Positions 1-42,417 of a stretch of 42,417 nt of DNA are shown piece by piece. A model generated the notes under the pieces. The model searched no databases. It saw nothing but the letters and a program-made list of their open reading frames with translations, and was not told the DNA's origin. The position numbers and the translations under genes are program-made. This stretch comes from a virus, in UHGV virus genome UHGV-0385671; one strand, 5' to 3'. How positions within the stretch are numbered: the stretch's first letter is position 1; the number at the start of each line of letters is the position of its first letter.

Positions 1-844
1 AAATATTACTGATAAATTAGTTGTTAAATATGATGGCCCCGCACTAGCAGATCATAAAATAGATTTGGATGTTTTAACTGAGTCATTGAATGGACTAAAC
101 AACTTGCTTAAAGAAGTTAATTTGGTTGTCAATGGCACTAGTGAGTGTATTAATGTTGAGGTTGAGCCTTTTAAAGAAGGCTCATTTGAGTATTTGATTG
201 ATGTTATTCAAAATCCACTTGACCATTTGAATATATTAAGCATTATTGGGCTTGGAGGTACAGCTGCACTCGCAGCAGGAAATACTCTCATTGACTTAAT
301 TCGTCAGATCAATGGTAGGCAAATAAAACGGTTGACTTTAACAGCGGAAGGAGACTGTAAAATAGTTATGGATGATGGTGAGGAAATTATAGCCCCGTCA
401 TATTTCCGGCCTTTACTTGCCTCACCAAGCATACGCAAATCCTTATCGAAGTTAATTCATAATCCTTTGCAAAAGGAAGGATACGAATCGCTTAAAATTT
501 CAACTCAACAGGGGGTTGAGCTGATTAAGGTGCACGAAGATAATATTGAACCGTTCAGATATAGGCGCGTTCCTGTAGTGCAGTCCTTGTCTGAAAGGGT
601 GATTGAAGAGGCTCTAATCACATTTTTGACTATTCATAAGGATAAAAACACAGGCTGGCGAGTCAACTATGGCGATGACACAATCAGCGTGTCTATAGAA
701 GATACTGAGTTCTTACAACGTGTTAGTACGGGAAGAGAACCTGGTGTTTTTAGTGATGCTTACTTCGTTGATTTGCTCGTCCGTGAGAACTTGAATTCGC
801 TGGACAAAACGTACATAGTTGTTAAAGTACACGGCATCTTATAG
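1..844 (+). CDS. C-terminal part of junction-spanning hypothetical protein (about 290 aa in total), AT-rich accessory cassette gene 1
   Basis: Frame open from position 2 with no upstream stop; ORF track gives 65..844 but the frame is continuous from the window start. No recognised motif. Confidence 0.55.
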   Translation, partial: NITDKLVVKYDGPALADHKIDLDVLTESLNGLNNLLKEVNLVVNGTSECINVEVEPFKEGSFEYLIDVIQNPLDHLNILSIIGLGGTAALAAGNTLIDLIRQINGRQIKRLTLTAEGDCKIVMDDGEEIIAPSYFRPLLASPSIRKSLSKLIHNPLQKEGYESLKISTQQGVELIKVHEDNIEPFRYRRVPVVQSLSERVIEEALITFLTIHKDKNTGWRVNYGDDTISVSIEDTEFLQRVSTGREPGVFSDAYFVDLLVRENLNSLDKTYIVVKVHGIL

Positions 845-867
845 TAGATTCACATGGGGAGGGGGCT

Positions 868-1116
868 ATGATTGCTTTTGCTTTTTGGCTGGCTTTTTTT
901 AGCCTGCTTCCCGTACTATATTGGGTTCTTAAGATGGGGTTTGACCGGTTACGCTTTGCGCTTATGCCTAAACATCATCTTGTTCTTGAATGTGTTGACT
1001 CAGAAGGAGTTGTCCGTCGCGATGTCGTTGATGTCTCTTCTGATGATGAATTTTACAAAATTGCAATGAATGCCATTCGTGCTGGAAGATCAGTCAAAGG
1101 AGGGACGTTTGAGTAG
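868..1116 (+). CDS. Small membrane protein (82 aa, one N-terminal TM helix), accessory cassette gene 2
   Basis: ATG 868 preceded by GGGGAGGGGG SD; N-terminus MIAFAFWLAFFSLLPVLYWVL is hydrophobic; 23 nt after gene 1 stop. Confidence 0.5.
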   Translation: MIAFAFWLAFFSLLPVLYWVLKMGFDRLRFALMPKHHLVLECVDSEGVVRRDVVDVSSDDEFYKIAMNAIRAGRSVKGGTFE

Positions 1117-1639
1117 CGCCTCTAAACCTGATAGCTACGAAAAAGTCCCTCTGATTTCTAATGTTGCTGCTGGTGGCATCACTGGTTTTTTAACATTACT
1201 GGTGTCCTCGTGGGACGGTCGTTTTCCGTATATTGGTTCTGATTTAAATACAATAAAGCCATTTCTTTTATTAATGCTTCCCAGTTGCGCTATGTTTCTG
1301 GCACATTGGATAAAGTCGATTGGGTTTAAATGGTCCTTAGGTAGCGTTAATCGACAGTTATTAAGCATTAATAAGAAGAAAGAAAAAGAACTTCGCCGTG
1401 ATATTGAAAAGTACAAAAATGTTATTTCTAATGAAAAGATAGAGGACTTTAAAAGTCAACTTGAACAAGTATTACAAGATCGTCATGATATTATTTCTAA
1501 TAATTATGCACAGAAACTAAGAGAAAGAAATTATACACAAGAAAAATATCATGAGCATAAACAAACCGCTGCAAATGATAATATTGAGCTGCAAGGCATA
1601 CTGGAGAATCAGAAGTTCAATCAAAAAGGCATTGACTAA
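1070..1639 (+). CDS. Membrane protein with two predicted TM segments and a C-terminal coiled-coil-like region, accessory cassette gene 3 (alternative TTG start at 1109 after an AAGGAGG SD)
   Basis: Overlaps gene 2 end; hydrophobic stretches VAAGGITGFLTLLVSSW and IKPFLLLMLPSCAMFLAHWI; Lys/Glu-rich heptad-like C-terminus. Confidence 0.5.
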   Translation: MPFVLEDQSKEGRLSSASKPDSYEKVPLISNVAAGGITGFLTLLVSSWDGRFPYIGSDLNTIKPFLLLMLPSCAMFLAHWIKSIGFKWSLGSVNRQLLSINKKKEKELRRDIEKYKNVISNEKIEDFKSQLEQVLQDRHDIISNNYAQKLRERNYTQEKYHEHKQTAANDNIELQGILENQKFNQKGID

Positions 1640-1643
1640 ATTT

Positions 1644-1940
1644 TTATAATATCCTCTCTAGGTTCTTGCTATCCAGCACCACTACGGTAAAGCCCAGTTT
1701 TCGCAGACGTTCATGTTCGCGCAACTGGTCAGGCCGTGGTGGCTTGCCGGGTGATTTACATTCAACGAAAAAGATACGACCACCTGGTAGCAGGACAATG
1801 CGATCCGGTACCGAGCGGTGACCGGGAGATACAAACTTAAAGGCCACTCCGCCAGCTTTTTTCACTTCAGCGACGAGGTGCTTTTCGATAAGGCTTTCAC
1901 GTTCATAGGCCATCTGAATCCCACTCTTCAAAAAGCACAT
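1644..1940 (-). CDS. VRR-NUC domain nuclease
   Basis: PD-(D/E)XK-like motif PDRIVLLPGGRIFFVECK and overall VRR-NUC pattern; 98 aa; sits in the replication module. Confidence 0.8.
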   Translation of the reverse strand: MCFLKSGIQMAYERESLIEKHLVAEVKKAGGVAFKFVSPGHRSVPDRIVLLPGGRIFFVECKSPGKPPRPDQLREHERLRKLGFTVVVLDSKNLERIL

Positions 1941-2419: not shown

Positions 2420-4483
2420 TTAATCCTTACGGTAGTGGTACGCCTCAAAACCGCCAGCGTTCAGTGGGATATCGGGCGCCCATTCGGGGTTAGTGGAGAG
2501 AAGCGCGGAAAGCGCTTTATCGTTGAAATCTTCTGTGTCAGGTGCTTCGGTGATCACCTCGTCGTGTACCGTCAGCACAATGCTGTAACCGGCATCTTCG
2601 ATAAGCGGCATGTTTCCGGCCAGAACGTCGCGGGCGGCCGCCTGGGTGACGTTCTCCACCAGCTTTCCGCCGTAGGTTTTGAGTCGTTGCCATTTACGCG
2701 AATAAGAGTTAACACCCATGTAGGTGATATTCCCTTGTTCGATAACCGGAGACGGGTAGCATACAGCGCGTCCGGATGGTAGCTGTATGCGTAGCCACGC
2801 GCCATCGCGGCGGATTTTAAGATAACCGCAATACAATGTTTTTTGCGGTGTGGCGATTGCAGTGCGGACGGTGCGCTCCAGTTCGTACCAGAAATCACAG
2901 GTCGCGGGATGCGCCCGGCGCCAGAGACGTTTAAGTGAGTCGCAGGCGATAAATACCCGTTCAGAAAGGCCGTAGGTTGACTTACGTTTAACCGATTCGC
3001 CGTACCAGCTTTTCGCCTCGCGGATAACATCGCGGGGAATGTTTGGCAGTGCAGCGTTTGCCAGCTCGTCGAGATCGAGACCGTAAACCAGTGCAAAAGT
3101 GATGAAGGCCGACACACCACCACCATAACCCAGACCGAGTTCCATGACTTTACCGATCTGACGCATGCGTTTATCAACATCATCTGGTGCAATATCAAAA
3201 GCTTTTGCATACGCCAGTTTATATAAGTCCGGACCCGTTCCGGCGTCGTACTCTCTGAATGCATTCAGTTTCCATTCTTCTCCTGCCAGCCATGACAGCA
3301 TACGGCCTTCAATGTTCGACAAGTCACTTACCACCAGTTTTTTGCCTGTTGGCGCGATAATGCAGCCACGTAACGCTGAACTGGTTAGTTCCATGATATT
3401 GTCAAACAGCAGGTCTGCACATCCGGCTTTCAGTGCTTCGATGCCTTCGTCTATTTGTTCCTGTTTTAGTGAAGGGCGGGGAAGGTTCTGGGGCTGGAAT
3501 AGCCGTCCGGCCCAGCGCCCGGTACGCGACGCCCCGCAGAACTGTAGCGTACCGCGTAAGCGCCCGTCGTGGCTTACGCCTTTCATTAGTGCCTTGTATT
3601 TACTGGTGCTGGTAGTACTGGCTTGCAGGCGGATAGCCAGCAGTTCTTTCACGGCAGATGGTAAATCGGGGTCGGCTATACGACGTTCTAGGGTACTGCG
3701 TTGCATGTCTGGTAGCTCCACACCGTAGGATTCAACGATGTGCTTAATCAACGCGTCCCGTTGTGTGGCTGCCTGCACTTCGCCATCAGTCATTTCCTGT
3801 GTACGCTTTGCCAGGCGCTTTTGCTCCTGGTCTACCGCTTCGATCGCAGCGCGCGCGAGTTGCATGTCCATGCAGACGCCCCGGTCGTTGATCTGCTGAT
3901 CACGATGCCAGAGCGCCAGCTCTGTCCCCTGATAATTCCACTTCGGCAGACGTTTATAGACTTCGCGCATTGCCTCGATATCCAGTCCGGCGTAAGCAAC
4001 AAAGCGCCGCCATTCTTCCGGGTGGGTTTTACTGGTGGCCCGACGCAGTTTGCTGTTTTTCGGGCGTGGCTTACAGAACAGCTGGATCAGCGCTTTACCT
4101 TCTTTGTCCTTCGCTTTGTCTTGCGGGACGCCTAGTACTTCGCAGAGTTCCCCCAGAGACCCCGGGAGACCGTGCGCCAGCGCCTGCACCATCGTGTCGC
4201 GCCAACGTTCGACTGGCGGTGCCAGTCGCGGCATTGCATAACGCAGAACGGTGCGGTCGAAGTGAGAGTTATGGAAATAAAGCAGGGTTTCAGGGTCTGC
4301 GATTGCTTCGTATAAGCCGTGTGGAATACCACCACCGGCAGTGATATCCCACACGTTTACTGGCCCGTCGTTGATAGCCCATGCGAAAAGCATCACTTCA
4401 ACGCCTTCGGCATACGCATGGGTACCGTTGTTGATCGGAATGTCACAATAGGTTTCCAGGTCGCCCCATAGTATATTGGACAT
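2420..4483 (-). CDS. Family A DNA polymerase with N-terminal 3'-5' exonuclease domain
   Basis: 687 aa; DnaQ-like exo motif near N-terminus (GDLETY) and PolA-like palm region; GAGGA SD 8 nt upstream of ATG. Confidence 0.9.
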
Positions 4484-4544
4484 AAAATATCCTCATATGG
4501 TATATGGTTAAATGCTAGATATCATGAATTAAAGGAGACAACTA

Positions 4545-5234
4545 ATGACTGTGGGTAATAAGAGACAGCCTAATGGATTACCTGAATATTATTGTCACCG
4601 TGGTAACGACATAAAAGATGCGATAGTTCGGGATTTTACTATTCAGCCTGTTGCACACCTGAAACTTATTACTGGACAAACTAAAACCAGTTATTCCGGT
4701 TATCCGTTAACCGATCAGTACTATTGTTTTTCATTTAAAAAACGCTCTGATGAAAATTGTACAGGGGCTTTTTTCTGTGGTAGAGATGTTGCAAAGGATT
4801 TCATTCGGCGTATCGGTTGTACAGAGCTGCCGTTATTTAATCCTATGAAATCGGATACCAGTGCAGCAATAGAACGTTCCGGTTCTGGCTCAGGTAGTTC
4901 TGGTATTACTGTCAAGCCAAATGCTGACAAAAAGCTATTTATAGACGCAGTTCGTCTGTTAATGACGCTGTGGGATTCAACAAGTAAGGGACAAACCCCA
5001 CTGGCGTCGGTTCTTAATGAAGCAATTTCTGGTGGTATAGATAAACCTCCAGAAATTAGACATGTAGTGGCGGTTAATACAATGTTGGGTAACACAAAAA
5101 ATACTTTAACTGGTCTGCTGGATAAAGCAAGAGCGAAGTATCCTGATGTGTTATTCAGAGATTTTGATTTCACGCCTCTTAACGAGATTGTAAAACGTTC
5201 AAAATCATATAATAAGCATCCCCCTTGTTATTGA
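4545..5234 (+). CDS. Hypothetical Cys-rich protein with Gly/Ser linker, encoded antisense inside the leftward replication operon
   Basis: Strong SD AAGGAGA 7 nt upstream of ATG 4545; Cys/His cluster at N-terminus (CHRGN..C..C..C), SGSGSGSSG linker; lower GC by eye than neighbours. Confidence 0.6.
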   Translation: MTVGNKRQPNGLPEYYCHRGNDIKDAIVRDFTIQPVAHLKLITGQTKTSYSGYPLTDQYYCFSFKKRSDENCTGAFFCGRDVAKDFIRRIGCTELPLFNPMKSDTSAAIERSGSGSGSSGITVKPNADKKLFIDAVRLLMTLWDSTSKGQTPLASVLNEAISGGIDKPPEIRHVVAVNTMLGNTKNTLTGLLDKARAKYPDVLFRDFDFTPLNEIVKRSKSYNKHPPCY

Positions 5235-5869
5235 GTATCAGACACTGTATTGGTAGGAAGGCCTATCATTTCATTTAATGTCTCTCGATGTACCGCTGGT
5301 GCTAAAGGGACTGGCGGTGCGTCTGTTGGAAGCAGTTCTTTAGCTTCGGGCCATACATCCAGTAATCGTTTTACTGTCCGAACTTTATTTAGAGCCGCGC
5401 TGACGTTCTGTATGATTTCGGTTTCATCACTTTTAATTTGTGTGTAGAGAGCATCAAAGCTATAAAACTCCGTTACCAGAGGATCTTCGCCAAGTAGAGT
5501 AAATTCTGCAGGTGCTATTTTATTAATATGCTCGGGGGCTCCTGATTCATAACCTCTGTAGTTGCCATTGAAATAAATGTTTGCTCTGGCTCCAGCCAGA
5601 TTGAGATATATGCAGCAATCTTTTCGAATTAAAGAACTATTGGTTTTTAATGAATCAGGGATTTTTGTGACCATGGATTCAATCTTTTTTATATTTTTTA
5701 ATATTTCAGCTTCTTTCTCTACGCCCCCGATAGCTGCAAGCCGAACACGTTCGGCCCATTCAACACGAGCAGCTCGTAGTGCTGATTTACGTTTGGGGAT
5801 ACCCGCTTTCTCAAGTGCGTTATTGATGATTTGAGTTTTAAGGTGATTAGTTAATACGGGCTGTGACAT
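5228..5869 (-). CDS. Hypothetical early protein (213 aa); start chosen at ATG 5869 rather than the GTG at 5899
   Basis: GAGGGAAAG SD upstream of ATG 5869; the longer GTG start lies inside a perfect hairpin. Confidence 0.55.
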   Translation of the reverse strand: MSQPVLTNHLKTQIINNALEKAGIPKRKSALRAARVEWAERVRLAAIGGVEKEAEILKNIKKIESMVTKIPDSLKTNSSLIRKDCCIYLNLAGARANIYFNGNYRGYESGAPEHINKIAPAEFTLLGEDPLVTEFYSFDALYTQIKSDETEIIQNVSAALNKVRTVKRLLDVWPEAKELLPTDAPPVPLAPAVHRETLNEMIGLPTNTVSDTQ

Positions 5870-5889
5870 TATACTTTCCCTCATGAGAT

Positions 5890-5910
5890 CCCCCAGCACG
5901 TAGCTGGGGG
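5890..5910. other. Perfect 8-bp stem-loop (CCCCCAGC-ACGTA-GCTGGGGG) in the 5' leader of gene 5228..5869
   Basis: Inverted repeat read directly; followed on the plus strand by a U-rich tract, so it could terminate antisense transcripts or act as a processing or translational element. Confidence 0.4.
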
Positions 5911-5920
5911 ATGAATATTT

Positions 5921-6469
5921 TTAAATTAGTGCTTCAGCATCAGCACCTTCGCTGATATCGTCAAAATCGTCAGCGCTTGCCACTCCGCCGCCAGCGAATG
6001 CATCGCCGTCTCGCAGGAACTGGACTCCGCCGAGTGAGGCATTAATGCGTTTACCGAAATTATTGTCCTGTGCCCAGATATCGATAACGGCGTTTACATA
6101 GCACCCTGCATAGGGACGTCCATCAGCCTGAATTAGTGGCGAACGATCGCGATCAAGAACAGCTGGGCGCGCTTTGTTAGCAGCATTCAGGAAGAAATTA
6201 CCGGGAAAGCCTTCATACTCTGCTTTTTCATCACCATCATGTAGGCACAGATTGAGTTTTTTCTCCAGCTGGCTATAAATGGGCTCCCACTTTTCTCCCC
6301 ATTTTTCCTTCGCTACCTGCTTCATAGCTTTACGGATTTCTTCCAGTTGTGGGTGTTTGGGTGACATTAAAAATACTGCGGAGAAACGCGGATCGCCTTC
6401 GCCGTTTACAGTTTTAGCTTCAAACAGAGACGGGAAGGCCAGACGAACATTGTTCAGCTTCAGTTTCAT
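5921..6469 (-). CDS. DUF2815-family phage protein (commonly paired with DUF2800; putative ssDNA-binding)
   Basis: N-terminus MKLKLNNVRLAFPSLFEA and gene order next to DUF2800 and PolA. Confidence 0.7.
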   Translation of the reverse strand: MKLKLNNVRLAFPSLFEAKTVNGEGDPRFSAVFLMSPKHPQLEEIRKAMKQVAKEKWGEKWEPIYSQLEKKLNLCLHDGDEKAEYEGFPGNFFLNAANKARPAVLDRDRSPLIQADGRPYAGCYVNAVIDIWAQDNNFGKRINASLGGVQFLRDGDAFAGGGVASADDFDDISEGADAEALI

Positions 6470-6484
6470 GGGTATTTCCTTAAA

Positions 6485-7786
6485 TCAGATGAGGTCTGCG
6501 GTTAGCGTATCGTCGGATACGTCGTCGAAATCATTTACAGGGTTGATATTGAGTGCGGGGCGTGGGTCTGACTCGGGAACGACGGTGGGTTTACCATCAG
6601 CTCGTGTTATCAGTGCCTCGACTTTTGACCAACGGCGCGGACTGGCCTTTTTGATAAGTTTTTCGGCTTTTGTGGGACTAATAAGTTTAAAGTCGAATAC
6701 TTCTTCAGTTTTGTACCTGAACTGGTCTTTCAGCAGCGCGCGGGCGGCTTCTTCATCGCTCCAGGCGCGATTACCCTGTTTACCAGTAACCAACTTAAAG
6801 CCCGGTACCGGATGCCCGGCGTTCAGCTCACTGTTCACCCGGTCGCGCACAGCCTTTAGCCAGGATTCAATAAAGTCGGCCTGGCTGTAGATCTCCGCCA
6901 GTTCCTCGATTGTCAGAAGCGGTACGCGCGAGCTGGCATCAGTGATGATTTCACTAACCGGTTTGGTCAGGTCTTCGAAATCGCTGGCAGCAGTTTGCAT
7001 GTGCTGCATTTTCTGAGCAATGCAGACTGCTTTGGCTTTGCAGAATCGGCACTGTTTTTCCCCGGGGGTGAAGTTTTCCAGCGGCAGGGTTTCGACGCCT
7101 TCGCAATCGGCGATGTTGAACATCACGATTACACTGGCTGCCGCTTCCTGCGCCCGTTCGCCGAACGCCTGGAGCTCTTCCACCGTCAGAGCCCACTCTG
7201 AAACGTGGTTAAGCCGCGGCTGGTGGATGAACAGGCGCACCGTCTCGAAGTCGTACAGCATGCTGAACTGTTCGAGTGCGCCAAGGGCATACAGCTGCAG
7301 CTGCTCGTTCTGCTCGGCGTCGACCCGCACACCCTTACCGTATTTCAGATCGTGGATCTGCAGCTCGTTGCCCGCGATGATTACGCCGTCGGCGGTACCG
7401 AATGACTCGTCTACGCCCACGATATGGGAGAAGTCGACACGCTGCTCGACCAGCAGCTCATTGCCCTGCGCCAGCGCCCAAACAGTGTCGACGTAACGAC
7501 CAACGGCTTCGACCATTTCCTCATCTACCTGCGGGCCGGAAGTATCATCCGGGTGCTCAGCAAGAGGATAGGATCCGAGGAACATCGCGACGGTGCAACC
7601 TGCATAGTGCTCCGGGTGGCTCTGGCGGTTGCGCAGCACCTTTTCGGCAAGTGCATGCGCTGCAGTGCCCTCGATTGCGAAAGTTGTTTCTTTATCCGGT
7701 TGTGTGGCCTCCAGCGCCAGACTTCCTGGGCAGCGCATCCATCGATGCGCTGATGATGGAGAAAGTTGTGCGTGAACGTCTGGCAT
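6485..7786 (-). CDS. DUF2800 PD-(D/E)XK nuclease, Cas4-like with C-terminal Cys cluster
   Basis: N-terminal [15 protein letters not shown] motif and C-terminal [10 protein letters not shown] four-Cys cluster. Confidence 0.8.
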
Positions 7787-8964: not shown

Positions 8965-9159
8965 TTATGGGGGAAGGACGACGGTATCCATTCGGTTAAA
9001 ACAAGTATTGGTCGCAGAACCTGTATGTTTGTTAACTAGAGTCAGGCTAACGTTATGCTGGTCGCGGTCAGTTTTTTGGGTAACCTCCATTATCCGTTTT
9101 CCACTGAATTCAATTTTGTCGCCGATAGCCAGGTCATTAACCAGTTTATATTTAGGCAT
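8965..9159 (-). CDS. Small first gene of the leftward early operon (64 aa), function unknown
   Basis: ATG 9159 preceded by GAGGAA SD; first gene downstream of the PL-like region and immediately followed by a terminator. Confidence 0.5.
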   Translation of the reverse strand: MPKYKLVNDLAIGDKIEFSGKRIMEVTQKTDRDQHNVSLTLVNKHTGSATNTCFNRMDTVVLPP

Positions 9160-9445
9160 CTTGTGATTCCTCATTCAGTTCACTTTAGTGGTTCGGCGGC
9201 TTCGACTTGTATTAATTAGACAGTGCTTCGCCGCACCCCAAAGGGAACTTACTGATCCGTATTGCCGACATCCTGTCCCGCCACGGTCCCGACGCATGGT
9301 TTAGAGTCGCGCCGTTCGACTTGTGGCTAAAGATACAATTTGAGTTGTATTGTGTAAACCACAAATATGGTATTTTGTAGGGTGTGAATACTACTTTATT
9401 GATATTTAAGTGAATTTAATTTGTAAGACTTTACAAATGGGGTAA

Positions 9446-9465
9446 GGGAGGCTGTTACGCCTCCC
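9446..9465 (-). terminator. Possible terminator hairpin downstream of the repressor gene
   Basis: 7-bp stem GGGAGGC/GCCTCCC with 6-nt loop 20 bp after the CI stop; trailing U-tract is weak. Confidence 0.3.
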
Positions 9466-9484
9466 GATATTTACGGTGGGAATA

Positions 9485-10108
9485 CTAACGTTTACGGCGG
9501 TAAATACGGTGTTCGATCATTACACCTATGATCTGTAAGTTCATATCTGCACTACGAAAAATAGGGTAATCAGGATTTAGGGGGATTAATTCAAAGTCGT
9601 CGATGCCGATTCCTAATGGGCGGTATTTTTTAAATGTAGCTTCGTGACCGTCGTTTTTGGCGACAACAAACTCCCCTGGTGCAGGACATAGATCAGGATC
9701 GATGATAACGATGTCTCCTTCTTTAAACTCTGGTTGCATGCTGTCGCCATCAATACGTAATGCGAAGCATGTTTCTGGAATGTCAGAGTCTGCCAAAATA
9801 TATTCAAATTCCCCTGTCAGATCTGTTATGTCTCTTGCTTCTGTAAGCTCTCCTGCCTGAACGTAACTTAATATAGGTATGCGTCTGGTACTTATCTCTG
9901 TGAGAGGCATAATATTTTTACCGTTCAGTAGCCAGTCTGGGCTACATTTCAAGGCCTTAGCCAAATCCAGAAGATTGCGTGGCTTTCTGGTTCGTCCACT
10001 TTCGATGGATTCTATGGATTGTTGGCTAACCCCTGCAGAATTCGCTACTTCCACTTGAGTCATTCCTAATTCCAAACGACGTGCTTTAAAACGGGCTGCG
10101 AGAGACAT
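9485..10108 (-). CDS. CI-like repressor: XRE HTH plus S24 (LexA-like) self-cleaving peptidase domain
   Basis: HTH QVEVANSAGVSQQSIESIESG; Ala-Gly cleavage site in VQAGEL; GDSM and KK catalytic dyad; AGGA SD upstream of ATG 10108 (ORF track start 10198 is probably too long). Confidence 0.9.
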   Translation of the reverse strand: MSLAARFKARRLELGMTQVEVANSAGVSQQSIESIESGRTRKPRNLLDLAKALKCSPDWLLNGKNIMPLTEISTRRIPILSYVQAGELTEARDITDLTGEFEYILADSDIPETCFALRIDGDSMQPEFKEGDIVIIDPDLCPAPGEFVVAKNDGHEATFKKYRPLGIGIDDFELIPLNPDYPIFRSADMNLQIIGVMIEHRIYRRKR

Positions 10109-10131
10109 GGGATTAGTCCTTCTGGGTTGTA

Positions 10132-10153
10132 TTAATGTGTATACCCACATTAA
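10132..10153. promoter_or_regulatory. Palindromic operator candidate (TTAATGTG-N6-CACATTAA) in the CI/Cro divergent promoter region
   Basis: Perfect 8-bp inverted arms with 6-bp spacer read directly. Confidence 0.5.
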
Positions 10154-10167
10154 AAACAATTTTTGTT

Positions 10168-10202
10168 GTATTTGACAAACCCCATTCGTTGTTGTCAAAT
10201 AC
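10168..10202. promoter_or_regulatory. Second inverted repeat (GTATTTGACAA ... TTGTCAAATAC) carrying TTGACA -35-like hexamers facing both directions
   Basis: 11-bp arms are exact reverse complements; each arm contains TTGACA. Confidence 0.5.
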
Positions 10203-10228
10203 CACTAAAATTGTATGAGGTAAAAGCA

Positions 10229-10441
10229 ATGACCTTAGCGACCCGAGTAAAAGAACGACGTAAAGAACTCAAAATGACGCAAGTTACGTTGGCTGAGCTC
10301 ACAGGAGTGAGCCAGCAGGCAATAAACAGAATTGAAAGTGGTGTTATTGCTCGACCACGTTATCTTCTTGAAATGTCTATAGCATTGGATTGCGACCCTA
10401 ATTGGCTGTTGTATGGCTCACAAAACGATAAAAAGGCTTAA
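10229..10441 (+). CDS. Cro-like XRE-family HTH regulator
   Basis: ATG 10229 after GAGG SD; HTH MTQVTLAELTGVSQQAINRIESG; divergent from the repressor. Confidence 0.8.
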   Translation: MTLATRVKERRKELKMTQVTLAELTGVSQQAINRIESGVIARPRYLLEMSIALDCDPNWLLYGSQNDKKA

Positions 10442-10444
10442 CCC

Positions 10445-12637
10445 ATGTCCGATAGCAAACCATGGGGAGCTACGCCTGATGAGTGGTTTCATTTCGACCT
10501 GGTATTGGGGAGAACTGATCATCTTCTCCCAGTTGTATGTAACCCCGGTGCGACCATATCCCCTGACAGTAAACTGAAAGCGCTGGGTAAGACGCCAAGT
10601 CGCTATAACCGGGACCGCCAGGTCACCGGTATTGCTCAATGGACCGGACATGTTGTTACTGAGCATGATTTTGCCCGCTGGTCGAATGAACCGGATTATG
10701 GCATCTGCGTGCGTACAGGCCATGGCTGGCTGGCGCTGGACTGCGATAGCGAAGATGAAGACATTCAGGCAGATATTCGCAAAACGCTTGTGCAACTTCT
10801 GGGGGAGTTGCCGCCGCGACGCTGGCGAGCAAACAGTAATAAGTGTCTGTATCTGCTGGCCGTTGATGGTGATTTCCGTAAGCGTATCCATCGCCTGGCG
10901 GGGGATATGGGCATTATCGAGTTGCTGGCGAACGGGCAGCAGTTCGTTGCCTGCGGTACGCACAGCAGCGGTGCGCGTATTGAATGGGACGGCGGTTTGC
11001 CGGATGAACCTCCGGCTATTACTGGTGAGCAGCTTGAAACGCTGTGGCAGCGCCTGGCTGAACAACTCCCTGTGTCGGTAACCACCGAAGCGGGCAACAC
11101 GAAGATGCGCGACCGATCAGCATTCACGCCCGGCGCGACGGATGATACAGCTGAATATCTTGATGCCAATGGCTGGACGCTGCTGGATGGCGCAAACGGT
11201 GAACGATATATCCGCTGTCCGTTTGAAGACGGCCACAGTAGCGGGGGCGACCCAACAAGTACAGTTTATTTTCCTGCGGGAACTGCGGGCTTTGAGCAGG
11301 GGCATTTTAAATGCCTACATGCCAGTTGCGCGCATCGTGATGACGGAGATTTCCTGAATGCCATCGGGATCCGCAACGACGATTTCGAAGATCTGACCAG
11401 CATCGAAGTGGCGGAACCTTTACCGCTGCCTGCTTTCGAGCGTGATAAATGGGGGCGTATCGAGGCAACCATCAGCAACGCAGCCAAAGCAGTAGTACGC
11501 CCTGATTTTGTGGACATCGATATTCGCTTTGACCAGTTCCGCGACGAAATCATGTTTGCCCCGGCAGGATCCGGACAATGGCGGGCATTCACCGATGCGG
11601 ATTATGCGCGCCTGCGCATCACGATGGAAAAGCGGGGATTTAAACCTGTTGGCCGTGAACTTATTCGCGATGTGGTGTTACTTGCAGCCGATGAACAACC
11701 ATTCGATTCAGCAATCACCTGGCTGAACGGACTGGAGTGGGATGGCGTGCCGCGCATCGAATGTTTCTACCATACGCACTTCGGTACCGCCGACACGCCT
11801 TATACCCGTGCGGTGTCTATGTACATGTGGACCGCGTTGGCGGGGAGAGTACTGGAGCCAGGCATCAAAGCGGATATGGTGCCGATCCTCGTTGGTCCGC
11901 AGGGCTGCGGTAAGTCTTCCGGAGTGGAGGCACTGAGCCCTGATCCTGCGTTTTTTACTGAAATCTCTTTTGCCGAAAAAGACGATGATCTCGCTCGAAA
12001 AATGCGTGGTCGGCTGGTGGCAGAGATTGGTGAACTGCGCGGACTTAATACCAAAGAGCTGGAGTCAATCAAAGCGTTTGTGACGCGTACTCACGAAAAC
12101 TGGATCCCGAAATACCGGGAGTTCGCCACCCAGTTTCCTCGTCGCCTGGTGTTCGTTGGTACCACCAATGAGGACGAATTCCTTGCGGACAAGACTGGTA
12201 ACCGTCGCTGGCTCCCCGTGGAAGTGTCGAAAGTCGACGTGAAAGCGATAAAAAGAGATCTCCTTTTACTTTGGGCTGAGGCTCGTGAGGTGTTTCAGCG
12301 TCTGGGGGGGATCCAGTTCCGTGAGGCTGAACAACTGGCAGCGAGTGTCCATGAACAGTACACCATCAAGGATGCTTGGCTTGAAACGGTAGAGAAATGG
12401 CTCGACACGCCAGACCTGATGACTAATGAACTTCCGCGAAATTGCGAATTTTTACGCGCAAGTGATGTTTTGCGTGATGCGATTGGGCTAAATCCTGACC
12501 GCATCGGAAAACGCGAAGAAATGCGAATTAGTAATGTTTTGCAAAATTGCGGGTATAAGCGTGCTCAAAGGCGAATTGGGGGGAAAATGACTCGAATTTT
12601 TGAGGCGGTGTCCCAACCTGTACCAGCCTCAAAATAG
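10445..12637 (+). CDS. Replication initiator: primase-polymerase N-terminal domain fused to a D5/VirE-like P-loop NTPase (helicase)
   Basis: 730 aa; Walker A VGPQGCGKSS; N-terminal region matches the bifunctional primase/polymerase pattern as I recall it; first gene of the rightward early operon after cro. Confidence 0.8.
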   Translation: MSDSKPWGATPDEWFHFDLVLGRTDHLLPVVCNPGATISPDSKLKALGKTPSRYNRDRQVTGIAQWTGHVVTEHDFARWSNEPDYGICVRTGHGWLALDCDSEDEDIQADIRKTLVQLLGELPPRRWRANSNKCLYLLAVDGDFRKRIHRLAGDMGIIELLANGQQFVACGTHSSGARIEWDGGLPDEPPAITGEQLETLWQRLAEQLPVSVTTEAGNTKMRDRSAFTPGATDDTAEYLDANGWTLLDGANGERYIRCPFEDGHSSGGDPTSTVYFPAGTAGFEQGHFKCLHASCAHRDDGDFLNAIGIRNDDFEDLTSIEVAEPLPLPAFERDKWGRIEATISNAAKAVVRPDFVDIDIRFDQFRDEIMFAPAGSGQWRAFTDADYARLRITMEKRGFKPVGRELIRDVVLLAADEQPFDSAITWLNGLEWDGVPRIECFYHTHFGTADTPYTRAVSMYMWTALAGRVLEPGIKADMVPILVGPQGCGKSSGVEALSPDPAFFTEISFAEKDDDLARKMRGRLVAEIGELRGLNTKELESIKAFVTRTHENWIPKYREFATQFPRRLVFVGTTNEDEFLADKTGNRRWLPVEVSKVDVKAIKRDLLLLWAEAREVFQRLGGIQFREAEQLAASVHEQYTIKDAWLETVEKWLDTPDLMTNELPRNCEFLRASDVLRDAIGLNPDRIGKREEMRISNVLQNCGYKRAQRRIGGKMTRIFEAVSQPVPASK

Positions 12638-36452: not shown

Positions 36453-37024
36453 TGGCATTCAGAATGAGTGAACAATCACGGACCATAAAAATTTATAATC
36501 TGCTGTCCGGAACTAATGAATTTATTGGTGAAGGTGATGCATATATTCCACCCCATACAGGGCTGCCTGCAAACAGTACCGATATTGCACCGCCAGATAT
36601 TCCGGCTGGCTTCGTGGCTGTTTTCAACAGTGATGAGGCATTGTGGCATCTCGTTGAAGACCATCGGGGAAAAACCGTCTATGACGTGGCTTCCGGCGAC
36701 GCGTTATTTATTTCTGAACTTGGCCCATTACCGGAAAACGTCACCTGGTTGTCGCCGGATGGGGAGTTTCAGAAGTGGAACGGCACAGCCTGGGTGAAAG
36801 ATGCAGAAGGAGAAAAACTGTTCCGGATCCGGGAGGCGGAAGAGAAAAAGGCAAGATTAATCCAGGAAGCGACTGATAACATAACAATTCTGCAGGATGC
36901 TGTTAATTTTGAAATGGCAACTGATGAGGAAGTATCGATGCTATCTTCCTGGAAAAAATACCGGGTATTAGTGAGTCGGATTGATATAAATACAGCTCCG
37001 GATATTGTATGGCCAGAGCTGTGA
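36452..37024 (+). CDS. tfa: Tail fibre assembly protein (Tfa; e14 TfaE-like)
   Basis: N-terminus [61 protein letters not shown] matches my recollection of E. coli e14 TfaE. Confidence 0.85.
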
Positions 37025-37034
37025 TTAAACGGAA

Positions 37035-37580
37035 TTATGTGTGAGATGAGTTATAAATAATTTCAGAGTGAAATTTAGTAATGAATGTGGAGTCATCAGG
37101 AATGTCATGCAGTACCAATGCATGAGCTCCTATTTTTACATCATTCCCTATATGCACTTTGCCACCAAGGATGGTGGCGTTACAGCCAATGGTTACATTA
37201 TTTCCTATGACAATATCCATATCATTAAATTCACCGCGAAGTCCAATAGTTACTCCAGGCTTAATTGAACAATTTTCACCTATTGTAACTTTGTGACCGA
37301 TAACAACGCCATTGAGATAAGATATGTCAAACCCTTTACCAATATTTACAGTTAAGGGAACGGTTACATTGTATTTATCAAGAATGAAACGTTCTATTTT
37401 TCCCGCAATCTTCCGACAGTATCCGCCTTTATCAAAAAGGTATTTGGCTATGCGCCACCAAAATAAATAACGTAATCTTCTGTGTTTTATTGCGCGAACA
37501 ATTGCTTTTCGCCAGGAGAAAGGGCGTTTATAACCTATTACTTCATAGTGTATACACTTTTTAAGTTCACTAATATTCAT
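37035..37580 (-). CDS. Left-handed beta-helix (hexapeptide-repeat) acetyltransferase, WcaB/serine acetyltransferase-like; candidate surface-polysaccharide modifier
   Basis: Tandem hexapeptide repeats (VVIGHKVTIGENCSIKPGVTIG..., IVIGNNVTIGCNATILGGKVHIGNDVKIGAHALV); AT-rich; convergent with tfa. Confidence 0.7.
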   Translation of the reverse strand: MNISELKKCIHYEVIGYKRPFSWRKAIVRAIKHRRLRYLFWWRIAKYLFDKGGYCRKIAGKIERFILDKYNVTVPLTVNIGKGFDISYLNGVVIGHKVTIGENCSIKPGVTIGLRGEFNDMDIVIGNNVTIGCNATILGGKVHIGNDVKIGAHALVLHDIPDDSTFITKFHSEIIYNSSHT

Positions 37581-37661
37581 ATGTCTATTATTCAGTAAAG
37601 ATAATTCTGTAACTTATTATTATATTAAGTTTAATGAGATTTTTCTACAGTTTACTGTCTT

Positions 37662-37793
37662 ACTCTCACGCCGGAGCAATGGGCGCAGGCTGGACGACAA
37701 ATTGCATCAGGAGTTTCTCGCCAGAAAGTGGCGATCATCTATGATGTTGGCGTATCGACTTTGTATAAGAAGTTTCCGGTCGGAGATGAATGA
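37662..37793 (+). pseudogene. 3' remnant of a Pin/Gin/Hin-family DNA invertase gene (C-terminal HTH only; catalytic domain missing)
   Basis: Frame encodes LTPEQWAQAGRQIASGVSRQKVAIIYDVGVSTLYKKFPVGDE, aligning with my recollection of the Pin C-terminus (LTKAEWEQAGRLLAQGIPRKQVALIYDVALSTLYKKHP); in-frame stop 27 nt upstream, no start. Confidence 0.65.
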
Positions 37794-37874
37794 AACCGTG
37801 GCACGTCGTATGCAAGAACGTGCCACGACTGGCTGATAAGCTTGTAAAAATCTTGAACAGGGAGTGGAGCATTT

Positions 37875-38522
37875 CTATGAAGCTAATTTGTTTAATTTCA
37901 TTTGTAGCGACTTTACTTCTTGGTCGATAATGTTGAATCCCTTATTGACGGCATCTCTTAGCTCTGCATCAATATTTTTTATCCCTTGAGCATAATCTAC
38001 CATTACATCTATTTTTTCATCATGTAATCTCTTATACATGGTTTTATCTTTGTTATTGTCAGCCATACCAATAAGGATTTTTTCATAATCCTCAATGAGT
38101 TTGTTGTTTCCTTTAAATGATTGTATTAATGACCGTGAATATGTGTAGATATTAATTATTGAGTCTCTGGCAGAATCATTTAGTTTTGCAATGACATTCG
38201 CATTTTGCTCATAGAATGTGAAATTATCATCCCCTACAGGGAAAGTGAGAATTAACATCTGTCCGGGTTTGATATTATCAATGTGTGTTTTCATCCTTTT
38301 ATTATATAAATTGATTAGGGTGAAAACTTCTCCCTTAACACCTTTTAATACTGAAAGTTGCAATTCAAGGGATTCTCTTTCTGTCTCTACTTTAGACAGC
38401 TTAGCTTGTTGGGTAACTCCTTTTAGGGTAAACCATCCGCCAATAAGAGTACCAACTAGAGCTGTGAGGGAGGAGGATAACCATCCAGGAATGCTATTTA
38501 AAAAATTACTAAATTCACTCAT
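37875..38522 (-). CDS. Membrane-anchored hypothetical protein (215 aa; N-terminal TM helix, coiled coil, C-terminal domain)
   Basis: Hydrophobic WLSSSLTALVGTLIGGWFTL near N-terminus; AT-rich; between invertase remnant and integrase. Confidence 0.55.
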   Translation of the reverse strand: MSEFSNFLNSIPGWLSSSLTALVGTLIGGWFTLKGVTQQAKLSKVETERESLELQLSVLKGVKGEVFTLINLYNKRMKTHIDNIKPGQMLILTFPVGDDNFTFYEQNANVIAKLNDSARDSIINIYTYSRSLIQSFKGNNKLIEDYEKILIGMADNNKDKTMYKRLHDEKIDVMVDYAQGIKNIDAELRDAVNKGFNIIDQEVKSLQMKLNKLAS

Positions 38523-38582
38523 TATAAGTACTCGCTAATATTGAACGATATATATATATCAAATTATTATAAAACTCGTCAG

Positions 38583-39014: not shown

Positions 39015-39317
39015 ATTGCTGTATTACTATGAAAATAAATGTGTTTTTATTTGATCTCACACATATCACAATTAATACAGCGTTTAGTAATTAGTAAAGA
39101 CATTTCAATGAATTACCGTTAAATCATTTTAAAATCAGTAAGTTGTATCGAGTTTGTATGCTTTACTGTCATTAACTTACTGTATGTTGATCCAGTGTAT
39201 TTAACCTTGATAAACTCAGTCCAGCAACACAAAACCGCAACACATTACATTTTGTCCCGTAGAAAAGACTTGTATGTGTGAGCTTGTTTTCTGCGCCTAC
39301 GCAGATAAGGATTGAGA

Positions 39318-40912: not shown

Positions 40913-42306
40913 GCTATACCTCTCTTTTTCATGGCATCGAGCAGGATGTCCTGCACTGTTCGTTTTGAGTTGCGCCGCTCCATCACCATTTCGTCCATAG
41001 TGTCGGCAGCAATAATGTGGTGAATAAATACCGGACGATTGTGTCCGGCCTGTATCTGCCTGGTGGGGCCGATACGTTCAATAATTTGCTGATATTGCTC
41101 CAGGTCCCACCAGTGTGAGAAAAATACCAGTATATTCCCGCCGTCCTGCATGTTCAGGCCGTGGCCCGCGCTGGCTGGGTGTGCAAAGAGAACAGGAATC
41201 TTTCCGGAATTCCAGTCGCGCAGTGTCTGTGGATCCTGGTCGAGGTGACGACCGCGAGGGAATGCTTTAAGCAAGCGTTCAAGATCGTGTTTCCAGTGAT
41301 AAGCAACCAGCACAGGTGCGCCAGCTGCTTCGGTCAGTATGCTGTCCAGCGCCTGTAGTTTGGTGTCATGCAGTTCTGACCAACTTCCGGTGTCGTCTGT
41401 GTATACTGCGCCACTGGCGATTTGAAGACACTTCAGTGTCTTTGCCGCGGCGTTCGGTGCTTCGATACCTTCGCCATTCAGCTCGAGGAACATTTCCTTT
41501 TCCATTTCACGATACTGCTGACGGGCCTTCGGCGGCATATCCACGCGGATTACGTTATGGATGGGGTCTTTGATATCGAACCAGTCGGCCGCATCCAGCG
41601 AGAGGGTCACATCGGCTAATGCTCGCTGTATTTCACCCTGTGAGTGAGCAAAAGGCTCCAGTTTAGTCCAGCTCTGTCCCGGAAACTGTATCGAGTTGAA
41701 CCAGCGTGAGGTAAACGCGCCGTAAGTGCGCCCGAGACGTTGCCCTTGGTCCACAAACCACGATTGTCCCCACAAATCTACCAGGCCGTTCGGTGCTGGC
41801 GTACCGGTGAGATTTATCCAGCGCCGGACATACTTATGCGCCACTTTGCCCAGCGCCGCCGCGCGCTTACCACCACCTCGCAGCCGGAAGGATTTTAGCC
41901 GGGTGCTTTCATCTGGAATGACAATACCGAACGGCCATCGTTCTCCCAATTCTTCAACCAGCCAGACAAGGTTATCGTAGTTGATGGTGAACACGCTTGC
42001 GTTGCTGTTCGCCAGCGCCGTAGAGCGCGCTTTGGCATTACCAACAATCGGCTGCACCTCGATATTGCGCAAATGCCCCCACTTCACTGCTTCATCCGGC
42101 CAGGTGTTTGCTGCAACACGTAGCGGCGCGAGGACCAGTGCGGGGCGTGTTTCTGCCCCTGCCATAAAAAGATCTTCCAGCGCAGTGAGCGTTGCCACGG
42201 TTTTACCCATTCCCATGCCTGCCCAGATGTTGCAGCGCATAATGTCGATTTGATGATTGATGATGAGATCTTGGTAGGGGTGAGGTGAAAATATAGCATA
42301 GTCCAT
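40909..42306 (-). CDS. SNF2-family helicase (superfamily 2 ATPase)
   Basis: Walker A GMGMGKT, DEAD-like box IPDEST, C-terminal helicase motifs; GGAGATA SD upstream of ATG 42306. Confidence 0.8.
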   Translation of the reverse strand: MDYAIFSPHPYQDLIINHQIDIMRCNIWAGMGMGKTVATLTALEDLFMAGAETRPALVLAPLRVAANTWPDEAVKWGHLRNIEVQPIVGNAKARSTALANSNASVFTINYDNLVWLVEELGERWPFGIVIPDESTRLKSFRLRGGGKRAAALGKVAHKYVRRWINLTGTPAPNGLVDLWGQSWFVDQGQRLGRTYGAFTSRWFNSIQFPGQSWTKLEPFAHSQGEIQRALADVTLSLDAADWFDIKDPIHNVIRVDMPPKARQQYREMEKEMFLELNGEGIEAPNAAAKTLKCLQIASGAVYTDDTGSWSELHDTKLQALDSILTEAAGAPVLVAYHWKHDLERLLKAFPRGRHLDQDPQTLRDWNSGKIPVLFAHPASAGHGLNMQDGGNILVFFSHWWDLEQYQQIIERIGPTRQIQAGHNRPVFIHHIIAADTMDEMVMERRNSKRTVQDILLDAMKKRGIA

Positions 42307-42373
42307 GGTATTGTATCTCCATGAATGAACTTATGTAGTAATAGCTTAATTATTTATTTCGAAAGGAACAGTT

Positions 42374-42417
42374 ATGACCTCAGCTTATACAGATGTCCAG
42401 CAAGAAGAAAATATTAC
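42374..42417 (+). CDS. N-terminal fragment of junction-spanning hypothetical protein (accessory cassette gene 1); continues at 1..844
   Basis: ATG at 42374 preceded by AAAGGAA Shine-Dalgarno; MTSAYTDVQQEENIT then runs off the window end in the same frame as ORF 1..844. Confidence 0.5.
   Translation, partial: MTSAYTDVQQEENI
42409..42417. repeat. 9-nt terminal identity (aaatattac) with positions 1..9; signature of a circular or overlapping-end sequence
   Basis: Last 9 nt aaatattac equal first 9 nt; reading frame of ORF 42374.. continues into 1..844 with or without collapsing the repeat. Confidence 0.7.

What the first reader, a model, noticed from the sequence alone, without database searches (positions are those of the whole stretch)
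1..1639. Junction-spanning AT-rich three-gene cassette inserted in the replication region (candidate undescribed accessory or defence system)
Three co-oriented plus-strand genes (42374 through 844, 868..1116, 1070..1639) sit between two minus-strand replication operons (SNF2 helicase/AlpA and PolA..VRR-NUC). They are visibly AT-rich relative to neighbours and have strong SDs. They encode a roughly 290-aa soluble protein, an 82-aa single-pass membrane protein and a 2-TM coiled-coil protein, none with a motif I recognise. Orientation, composition and membrane components fit a moron or exclusion cassette rather than core replication.
Basis: partly seen in the sequence, partly recalled or inferred. 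Interest (0 to 1): 0.8.

Follow-up and report, generated by a model that had tools for sequence, protein, structure and literature searches.

The report
Mobile three-gene prophage defence candidate
Three co-transcribed genes in an E. coli prophage (a non-enzymatic protein with predicted beta-barrel folds, plus two small membrane proteins) form a mobile accessory cassette that also sits in unrelated phages and mobile elements, which makes it a credible but untested anti-phage defence candidate.

Summary
Three plus-strand genes lie between the minus-strand SNF2/AlpA and PolA..VRR-NUC operons of an E. coli prophage: A (292 aa, split by the window junction), B (82 aa) and C (176 aa, start revised to TTG 1109). 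The cassette is 37.8% GC against 49.7% elsewhere, and all three genes are under purifying selection (dN/dS 0.05-0.15). Sibling prophages at the same yfhL site carry Rha/Arc genes in exactly this slot.

The A-B-C triad recurs, in the same order, in at least eight unrelated contexts. These include lambdoid prophages next to the integrase, a Pantoea myovirus tail module, a non-tailed PM2-like Vibrio prophage, and an Aeromonas element beside a type I RM/SoFic island.

A is not unknown. It matches PADLOC candidate PDC-S42 (4.7e-40) and NCBIfam LAPAL_fam, a family of about 4,400 clusters, none tested. It has no catalytic-looking invariant residues. Its model shows OB-like barrels and a conserved glycine-rich hydrophobic helix. 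PADLOC lists the family as single-gene; the membrane partners B and C are specific to this clade and have no family match outside PHROGs.

Best reading: a defence or exclusion moron with Rex-like logic, a cytoplasmic sensor plus membrane effectors. The mechanism is inferred, not shown.

The parts
42293..42373 (+). Left boundary of the cassette and 5' untranslated/promoter region of gene A. It includes the divergent start of SNF2 and the SD AAGGA 8 nt before the ATG.
   Evidence: Homology to sibling prophages ends at 42292. Sequence read. The consensus sigma-70 scan found no strong promoter here, so the promoter is not located.
42374..42417 (+). Gene A, first 44 nt (residues 1-14 and two bases of codon 15). 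It continues at window position 10.
   Evidence: Junction reconstruction gives a 292-aa ORF. It is identical to the continuous chromosomal gene WP_032171074.1.
1..9 (.). Nine-base duplicate of window 42409-42417 (AAATATTAC). This is a circularisation overlap, not part of the gene.
   Evidence: The chromosomal copies encode 292 aa, not 295.
10..844 (+). Gene A, remainder. It is a member of the PDC-S42 / LAPAL family. Predicted parts are an N-terminal domain with the long 'LAPAL' helix (to about 211), a glycine-rich hydrophobic segment plus basic motif (233-337), a middle beta-barrel-like domain (about 323-535) and a C-terminal OB-like barrel (about 575-838). The family-invariant W231-R232 lie at 656-661.
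868..1116 (+). Gene B, 82 aa. It has an N-terminal single TM helix (residues about 2-22), then basic residues and an acidic tail of about 55 aa that is predicted cytoplasmic. A strong SD (GGGGAGGGGG) precedes the start.
   Evidence: phrog_15510 at 2.4e-55. No Pfam, PADLOC or NCBIfam hit. It always follows A in the short clade.
1109..1639 (+). Gene C, 176 aa from TTG 1109 (the maximal ORF starts at ATG 1070). It overlaps the end of B by 8 nt. It has two moderately hydrophobic helices (residues about 15-34 and 50-72) and then a long charged helical C-terminal region of about 90 aa.
   Evidence: PGAP start. (phrog_15878 matches from residue 14 of the long ORF). Also (all-helical, low-confidence model).
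1640..1648 (.). Right boundary of the cassette. The stop of C abuts the convergent stop of VRR-NUC (1644), and no terminator hairpin is present.
   Evidence: Homology to siblings resumes at 1641-1648. No terminator was found in the scan.

Best explanation
The region is a self-contained mobile accessory cassette (a moron). It sits in a variable slot of a temperate E. coli myovirus integrated next to yfhL, and it most likely protects the lysogen against other phages by defence, abortive infection or exclusion.

Proposed mechanism; every step here is inferred and none is shown. Protein A is a non-enzymatic cytoplasmic sensor. Its two OB-like beta-barrels would bind a phage-derived cue, such as ssDNA or replication intermediates, or a phage protein. 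A would be coupled to the inner-membrane proteins B (single-pass, cytoplasmic tail) and C (helical hairpin plus long cytoplasmic helical region). The coupling would run through A's conserved glycine-rich hydrophobic helix and the cytoplasmic domains of B and C. Activation would make the complex permeabilise or depolarise the inner membrane and stop the infection. This is the same logic as lambda RexA/RexB, but the proteins are unrelated.

What is shown: the genes themselves, purifying selection, the strict A-B-C linkage, the mobility of the unit, the replacement of the slot in sibling prophages, membership of the PDC-S42 candidate family, and predicted folds and topologies.

What is inferred: the defence phenotype, the ligand, the assembly of A with B and C, and the membrane effect.
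For: - Discrete module. Boundaries are sharp at 42292 and 1641-1648, and sibling prophages at the same att site carry Rha/Arc genes instead. The cassette is 37.8% GC against 49.7% elsewhere.
- It is rare: 19 of 5,426 complete E. coli genomes carry it.
- The A-B-C order and spacing are conserved down to 29% A identity across unrelated backbones:
  - lambdoid prophages, directly after the integrase (E. coli, Klebsiella);
  - a Pantoea myovirus tail module, where the unit has its own terminator and a promoter-like motif upstream;
  - a virome contig, after the tape-measure gene;
  - a non-tailed Vinavirales Vibrio prophage, next to the integrase;
  - between two serine recombinases;
  - a Photobacterium chromosome;
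  - an Aeromonas primase/Mob element.
- Defence neighbours. The Aeromonas copy is about 640 bp from a type I RM operon with an embedded SoFic (6e-118) and an Mrr_N gene. Another copy is followed by a gene resembling the retron 2TM_IV effector (7e-9).
- A matches PADLOC PDC-S42 (4.7e-40), and all 47 sampled relatives do too. PDCs were nominated because they are embedded in RM, BREX, DISARM or Hma systems.
- All three genes are under purifying selection. They remain intact in two chromosomal prophage copies that carry IS insertions, frameshifts or truncated genes elsewhere.
- A has no catalytic-type invariant residues (G, G, W, D, F only). It has OB-like barrels and a family-wide hydrophobic Gly-rich helix followed by a basic motif.
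- The positive-inside rule places the soluble parts of B and C in the cytoplasm with A.
- The prophage has its own holin and endolysin elsewhere, so B and C are not its lysis genes.
Against: - No experiment exists for this cassette or for any PDC-S42 member. Literature searches for PDC-S42, DUF7946, LAPAL and the accessions found nothing.
- PDC status is purely computational.
- Only two of about ten contexts have recognisable defence neighbours.
- B and C match nothing in PADLOC.
- The C model has low confidence (pLDDT 66).
- The hydrophobic helices of A and C are only marginally hydrophobic on a translocon-type scale.
- No convincing promoter was found in the window copy.
- Long-clade relatives work without B or C. 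B and C could therefore be regulators or anchors rather than effectors.
Confidence: 0.55

Rival explanations
1. Superinfection exclusion at the envelope. B and C, with A, would sit in the inner membrane and block genome injection by incoming phages, as T4 Imm/Sp or P22 SieA do, rather than sensing infection and aborting it. This is a sub-type of defence and overlaps the best explanation.
For: There are two small membrane proteins and the location is that of a prophage moron. B is an 82-aa N-terminally anchored protein.
Against: The largest and most conserved component is a 292-aa protein with nucleic-acid-type OB-like folds that is predicted to be cytoplasmic. Solo long-clade relatives lack membrane partners altogether. 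There is no similarity to lambda SieB (hhalign probability 0.8%).
Confidence: 0.15
2. A lysogenic-conversion or host-fitness moron unrelated to phages, for example envelope stress tolerance or an interaction with the host or competitors, or an addiction/stabilisation module that penalises loss of the element.
For: Location and composition show only that it is accessory cargo. Most contexts have no defence neighbour. One Aeromonas copy lies beside T6SS hcp-PAAR-vgrG. A Salmonella long-clade relative sits next to a hok toxin gene.
Against: The triad is divergent from the T6SS genes rather than downstream of them. Its carriers are almost exclusively phages and integrative elements of many kinds, and the family was nominated from inside RM, BREX or DISARM loci. 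No toxin- or antitoxin-type domain was detected.
Confidence: 0.2
3. A phage structural or assembly protein (the NCBIfam name is 'putative phage structural protein'), or an ssDNA-binding replication accessory factor of the PolA module.
For: NCBIfam NF053583 carries that name. Two copies lie inside tail-gene modules. The OB-like folds resemble those of SSB, RPA and LEF-3. The window copy sits in the replication region.
Against: The same triad lies next to integrases in lambdoid phages, in a tail-less PM2-like Vinavirales prophage, and on non-phage elements. Sibling prophages with near-identical replication and tail genes lack it. It points against the replication operons, and in Pantoea and Photobacterium it has its own terminator. 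No replication-protein family matches.
Confidence: 0.04

Closest known systems
PADLOC phage defence candidate PDC-S42 (Payne et al., bioRxiv 10.1101/2024.01.29.577857)
   Same: Protein A matches the PDLC05015 model over its full length (E=4.7e-40). All 47 sampled relatives match it too, up to 1.3e-112. Size (about 300 aa) and single-domain architecture agree.
   Different: PDC-S42 is listed as a single-gene candidate and has not been tested. Here, and throughout the 'short' clade, A is always followed by two membrane-protein genes that PADLOC does not model. The window copy is in a prophage slot and is not embedded in an RM, BREX or DISARM system.
NCBIfam NF053583, 'LAPAL motif-containing putative phage structural protein', with Pfam DUF7946 and phrog_3243
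   Same: A scores 194 bits against a cut-off of 60. The motif lies in the long N-terminal helix; the family consensus reads ..DVxxLAPALLAL... phrog_3243 matches at 1.5e-99.
   Different: The 'structural protein' label is not supported by the distribution of the gene (see rivals). DUF7946 matches only the N-terminal 60-70 residues and falls below Pfam's cut-off (22.3 against 27 bits).
Lambda RexA/RexB abortive-infection (exclusion) system
   Same: The logic and layout are similar. A cytoplasmic non-enzymatic protein of about 280-290 aa is co-transcribed in a prophage with small inner-membrane protein(s). This rests on established knowledge of Rex; the gene sizes were read.
   Different: There is no sequence relationship. 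hhalign gives probability 0.1% for A against RexA and 0.4% for C against RexB. RexA is not among the top structural matches. There are two membrane partners here instead of one 4-TM protein.
Defence effectors made of TM helices plus a small ligand-binding beta-barrel (for example CBASS Cap15). This comparison comes from my own knowledge and was not tested here.
   Same: The concept is shared: a beta-barrel binding domain coupled to hydrophobic helices that disrupt the membrane on activation. A combines OB-like barrels with a conserved Gly-rich hydrophobic helix.
OB-fold ssDNA-binding proteins (RPA70, SSB, PriB, baculovirus LEF-3)
   Different: Sequence identity is 5-13% and there is no sequence-family match. 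The N-terminal LAPAL domain and the hydrophobic segment have no counterpart in these proteins. The genomic behaviour is that of cargo, not of a replication gene.

Membership tests
PADLOC PDC-S42 (candidate defence family) | Protein matches the PDC-S42 HMM | tested here: met
   PDLC05015 matches at E=4.7e-40, residues 17-288 against profile positions 5-286 of 302. All 47 relatives match as well.
PADLOC PDC-S42 (candidate defence family) | Single-gene system | tested here: not met
   In every short-clade locus examined, A is followed by B-like and C-like genes. Only long-clade relatives are solo.
PADLOC PDC-S42 (candidate defence family) | Found embedded in or next to RM, BREX, DISARM or Hma systems | tested here: inconclusive
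   One Aeromonas copy lies about 640 bp from a type I RM with SoFic and Mrr_N. Another lies next to a 2TM_IV-like gene. The window copy and most others have no defence neighbour.
PADLOC PDC-S42 (candidate defence family) | Confers phage resistance | not testable with these tools
   No experimental report was found.
NCBIfam NF053583 LAPAL_fam | Score above the curated cut-off | tested here: met
   194.2 bits against a cut-off of 60.
NCBIfam NF053583 LAPAL_fam | Role as a phage structural protein, as the name implies | tested here: not met
   The gene is present in tailed and tail-less prophages and in non-phage elements, is absent from sibling prophages, and lies outside structural modules in most loci.
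Pfam DUF7946 | Score above the gathering threshold | tested here: not met
   22.3 bits against 27, and only profile positions 2-71 of 183 are covered. 13 of 47 relatives match at E<=0.01.
Lambda Rex (RexA/RexB) | Homology of the soluble and membrane components | tested here: not met
   hhalign probability is 0.13% for RexA and 0.36% for RexB.
Lambda Rex (RexA/RexB) | Infection-triggered membrane depolarisation | not testable with these tools
   This needs membrane-potential assays in infected cells.
SieB-type exclusion proteins | Homology to lambda SieB | tested here: not met
   hhalign probability is 0.83%.
Moron (autonomous accessory transcription unit in a phage genome) | Present or absent among otherwise collinear related phages, with deviant base composition | tested here: met
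   for the slot replacement. for 37.8% against 49.7% GC.
Moron (autonomous accessory transcription unit in a phage genome) | Own promoter and terminator | tested here: inconclusive
   Clear intrinsic terminators follow C in the Pantoea and Photobacterium copies. None is present in the window copy, and no consensus promoter was found upstream of A.
Phage lysis cassette (holin/spanin) | Membrane proteins adjacent to the endolysin in the late region | tested here: not met
   The prophage has a lambda-family holin and a GH24 endolysin elsewhere. B and C lie in the early region on the opposite strand.
OB-fold nucleic-acid-binding proteins | Five-stranded barrel with a helix between strands 3 and 4 | tested here: met
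OB-fold nucleic-acid-binding proteins | Binds ssDNA or another nucleic acid | not testable with these tools
   This needs an EMSA or similar assay with purified A.

The most novel reading that the evidence does not exclude
The triad would be a new kind of abortive-infection system with no enzyme in it. A tandem-OB-fold sensor carrying a glycine-zipper-like helix would assemble with two dedicated small membrane proteins into a phage-triggered membrane lesion. The solo long-clade relatives (the bulk of a family of about 4,400 clusters) would do the same job alone. The same module would be exchanged between tailed phages (Duplodnaviria), PM2-like non-tailed phages (Varidnaviria) and integrative elements.
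Probability: 0.3. Interest if true: 0.75.

Novelty: new variant of a known kind. Interest (0 to 1): 0.55.

Why it matters
If the triad protects against phages, it would turn a large family into a characterised defence family. That family has about 4,400 clusters at 50% identity, is catalogued and is entirely untested (PDC-S42 / LAPAL). It would also show that the PADLOC model is incomplete for one clade, because the two obligatory membrane partners are missing from it. The protein appears to have no catalytic site, and its whole-chain fold has no solved counterpart, so the mechanism would probably be informative: sensing by OB-like barrels and output through the membrane. The distribution is a clean example of one cargo module moving between phages of two viral realms and other mobile elements. 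It also corrects a misleading database name ('phage structural protein').

Tried and rejected
- Replication accessory or structural protein: rejected on distribution.
- Lysis cassette: rejected, because the prophage has its own holin and endolysin.
- Homology to lambda RexA, RexB or SieB: hhalign probabilities are below 1%.
- Known defence systems for B and C: no PADLOC, Pfam or NCBIfam hits. Only PHROGs of unknown function match.
- AFDB50 fold search: the library was unavailable.
- Structure of C: the model is low-confidence and all-helical, so it was not searched further.
- Literature: no papers mention PDC-S42, DUF7946, the LAPAL motif, the RefSeq accessions or phrog_3243. The stored copy of supplementary Table S8 of the PADLOC paper is cut off before S42.
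- Wider locus harvests gave little. The broad alignment had no stretch conserved enough to scan with. The genome scan gave 2 loci and the metagenome scan 8, mostly short.
- T6SS effector/immunity reading of the Aeromonas copy: rejected, because the triad is divergent from hcp-PAAR-vgrG rather than downstream of it.
- Promoter in the window copy: the consensus scan found none in 42100-42417.
Full report
**What is in the sequence**

The window is a circularly permuted copy of an E. coli prophage. Its first nine bases repeat its last nine (AAATATTAC). Removing the repeat gives a continuous 879-nt gene A (42374..42417 joined to 10..844; 292 aa). It is identical to WP_032171074.1 in E. coli chromosomes, where the region is uninterrupted and the prophage is integrated beside yfhL.

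Gene B is 868..1116 (82 aa). Gene C is an ORF from 1070, but it almost certainly starts at TTG 1109 (176 aa). That start lies just after AAGGAGGG and overlaps the end of B by 8 nt. It is the start used by PGAP, by the PHROG profile and by most homologues.

The three genes are on the plus strand. They lie between the minus-strand SNF2 helicase/AlpA genes and the minus-strand VRR-NUC...PolA operon. The cassette is 37.8% GC and the rest of the window 49.7%. Against diverged alleles, dN/dS is 0.055-0.072 for A, 0.12-0.15 for B and 0.058-0.067 for C, so all three are functional genes.

**It is a replaceable module, not part of the replication machinery**

Sibling prophages at the same yfhL site keep integrase, AlpA, SNF2, VRR-NUC and PolA at 97-100% protein identity. 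Between SNF2 and VRR-NUC they carry a Rha-family regulator, a small ORF and two Arc-family genes. Nucleotide homology to these siblings stops at window 42292 and resumes at 1641-1648, which is exactly at the edges of the three-gene unit.

Only 17 of 5,426 complete E. coli genomes carry this allele, and two more carry a 70%-identical one. In two chromosomal copies the prophage is decaying while the triad stays intact. One has a frameshifted PolA and DUF2800 gene and an IS66 insertion; the other has an IS2 in the spike gene and a truncated tail fibre. The prophage has its own lambda-type holin and GH24 endolysin, so B and C are not its lysis genes.

**The same three-gene unit travels widely**

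Wherever a relative of A from the 'short' clade was found (A identity 29-92%), a B-like gene of 80-85 aa and a C-like gene of 134-176 aa follow it. Order and spacing are the same and the architectures match, even where C identity has fallen to about 20%.

Flank clustering, together with the Vibrio prophage and the L060 metagenome contig found later, gives at least eight unrelated contexts:
- this PolA/SNF2 myovirus;
- lambdoid prophages of E. coli, Klebsiella and Citrobacter, directly after the integrase;
- a Pantoea ananatis myovirus, inside the tail/baseplate module, with a clear intrinsic terminator and a promoter-like motif upstream;
- a virome contig, after the tape-measure gene;
- a low-GC contig, between two serine recombinases;
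- a Photobacterium chromosome near metH;
- an Aeromonas primase/Mob element;
- a 14.4-kb non-tailed Vinavirales (PM2-like) prophage of Vibrio cyclitrophicus, next to its integrase.

The most distant B homologue found is still preceded by the C-terminus of an A-family gene and followed by a C-like gene. One natural copy has C truncated by an IS66 element.

**Links to defence**

A matches the PADLOC model PDC-S42 over its full length (E=4.7e-40), and all 47 sampled relatives match it too. PDCs are 'phage defence candidates' nominated only because homologues are embedded inside Hma, BREX, DISARM or type I RM loci. They are untested, and no paper in the library mentions PDC-S42.

The Aeromonas copy lies about 640 bp from a type I RM operon that contains SoFic (6e-118) and an Mrr_N gene. 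Another copy is followed by a gene that matches the retron-type 2TM_IV effector model (7e-9). Most other copies have no recognisable defence neighbour. Their positions are the classical cargo positions of temperate phages: the integrase end, the ends of tail modules, and the hypervariable regions of non-tailed Vibrio prophages, which PMC12715192 links to defence.

**What the proteins look like**

A belongs to a large family. The search found 4,423 clusters at 50% identity with E<=1e-3 and 866 with E<=1e-30. The 150 best hits are all 275-354 aa and match A over essentially its whole length. NCBI calls the family 'LAPAL motif-containing putative phage structural protein' (194 bits against a cut-off of 60). 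The distribution above contradicts the 'structural' part of that name.

The family-invariant residues are two glycines, a tryptophan, an aspartate and a phenylalanine. The nearly invariant ones include three arginines. This is not a catalytic-looking set.

An AlphaFold2 model (pLDDT 83.4) shows four parts:
- an N-terminal strand, long helix and hairpin domain; the helix carries the LAPAL motif;
- a poorly resolved glycine-rich hydrophobic segment (residues 90-114, ILSIIGLGGTAALAAGNTL...), followed by a basic motif; both features are conserved family-wide;
- a middle barrel-like domain;
- a C-terminal domain with canonical OB-fold strand and helix order.

B has one unambiguous N-terminal TM helix and a tail of about 55 aa that the positive-inside rule places in the cytoplasm. 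C has two moderately hydrophobic helices and then a highly charged helical region of about 90 aa (18 K/R, 17 D/E), also cytoplasmic by the same rule. The C model is all-helical but has low confidence. On a translocon-type scale, with values recalled from memory, A's segment is about as hydrophobic as C's first helix. A could therefore be peripherally or conditionally membrane-associated.

B and C match only PHROGs of unknown function. The B family is small and confined to the taxa that carry the triad.

**Two clades**

Relatives of 300-320 aa with an insertion of about 20 residues just before the hydrophobic segment (the 'long' clade) lack B and C. One is a solo gene next to hok at a prophage end in Salmonella. 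Others have unrelated neighbours. This fits PADLOC's single-gene listing. It also suggests that A carries the core activity and that B and C are clade-specific partners.

**Most likely function and mechanism**

The shown facts are mobility, slot replacement, strict three-gene linkage, purifying selection, retention in decaying prophages, candidate-defence family membership, occasional defence neighbours, absence of catalytic motifs, and membrane partners with cytoplasmic domains. Together they fit a defence or exclusion moron best.

I propose Rex-like logic. A would sense a phage cue through its OB-like barrels, and together with B and C it would compromise the inner membrane. This is an analogy of design only. 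hhalign shows no relationship to lambda RexA, RexB or SieB. I put the defence or exclusion function at about 0.55, plus about 0.15 for a pure injection-block variant. The specific membrane-lesion mechanism is at about 0.3.

The alternatives are a non-phage fitness or addiction function (about 0.2) and a structural or replication role (about 0.04, largely refuted by distribution).

**Novelty and verdict**

The gene family is already catalogued (PADLOC, NCBIfam, PHROGs, and partly Pfam DUF7946). However, nothing is known about it, the database name is probably wrong, and I found no record of the obligatory three-gene form. I rate it a new variant of a known kind: a candidate prophage defence system.

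It is worth testing. It is one of many untested candidates, but it stands out for four reasons: it has no enzyme, its whole-chain architecture has no solved counterpart, its family is very large, and it has spread across two viral realms.

Noticed in passing
window 1-9 and 42409-42417: The window's two ends share a 9-bp direct repeat (AAATATTAC). This is an overlap left by circularising the assembly. It would insert three spurious codons (NIT) into gene A if the ends were simply joined.
   Followed up: yes
window 4545-5234 (+): A second AT-rich (39-41% GC), oppositely oriented orphan gene (229 aa) lies between PolA and the Nmad5 gene. It has no Pfam or PADLOC hit. Sibling prophages carry a different gene of about 200 aa, or that gene plus a BRO-N gene, in this slot. 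This looks like another variable cargo slot in the replication region.
   Followed up: partly
window 37001-39300: An AT-rich block (34-39% GC) lies beside the integrase/attachment end. It holds orphan minus-strand ORFs of 215 aa (37875-38522) and 143 aa (38583-39014) with no Pfam or PADLOC hit. This is probably further prophage cargo.
   Followed up: partly
L001 (NZ_CP148570.1) 3867-6482 and L040 (NZ_CP145657.1) 42159-44774, 6482-7710: Chromosomal copies of this prophage carry an IS66-family element between the AlpA-like gene and SNF2. They also carry a frameshifted PolA and DUF2800 gene (L001), or an IS2 in the spike gene and a truncated tail fibre (L040). The three-gene cassette is 100% intact in both.
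   Followed up: partly
L004 (E. coli O157:H16 CP062876.1) 9142-12565: In one lambdoid-prophage copy of the triad, gene C is cut to 93 aa by an IS66-family insertion. This is a natural knock-out that could serve as a comparison strain.
   Followed up: no
L014 7424-7944 and 8951-9646; L019 7200-7946: Long-clade relatives of A lack B and C but have other neighbours. In L014 there are two divergent small multi-TM proteins (95 and 78 aa) and a proline-rich protein with a C-terminal winged helix that gives only sub-threshold winged-HTH matches, one of them to AbiEi_4. In L019 there is a 248-aa soluble protein with no hits. Whether these are functional partners is unknown.
   Followed up: partly
L059 (Vibrio phage 10N.286.45.F8_PE001, PQ189332.1) 1276-2880: A PM2-like, non-tailed Vinavirales prophage of only 14.4 kb devotes about 1.6 kb next to its integrase to the same A-B-C triad. 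This shows cargo exchange between tailed and non-tailed phages.
   Followed up: yes
window 5228-5899 (-), with neighbouring genes listed in L001/L040: The replication module combines PolA, VRR-NUC, DUF4406, an ANR-family regulator, Nmad5 (1.7e-54), DUF2815, DUF2800, SNF2 and VapE primase-helicase genes. The Nmad5 'nucleotide modification associated' gene hints at DNA modification by this phage.
   Followed up: no
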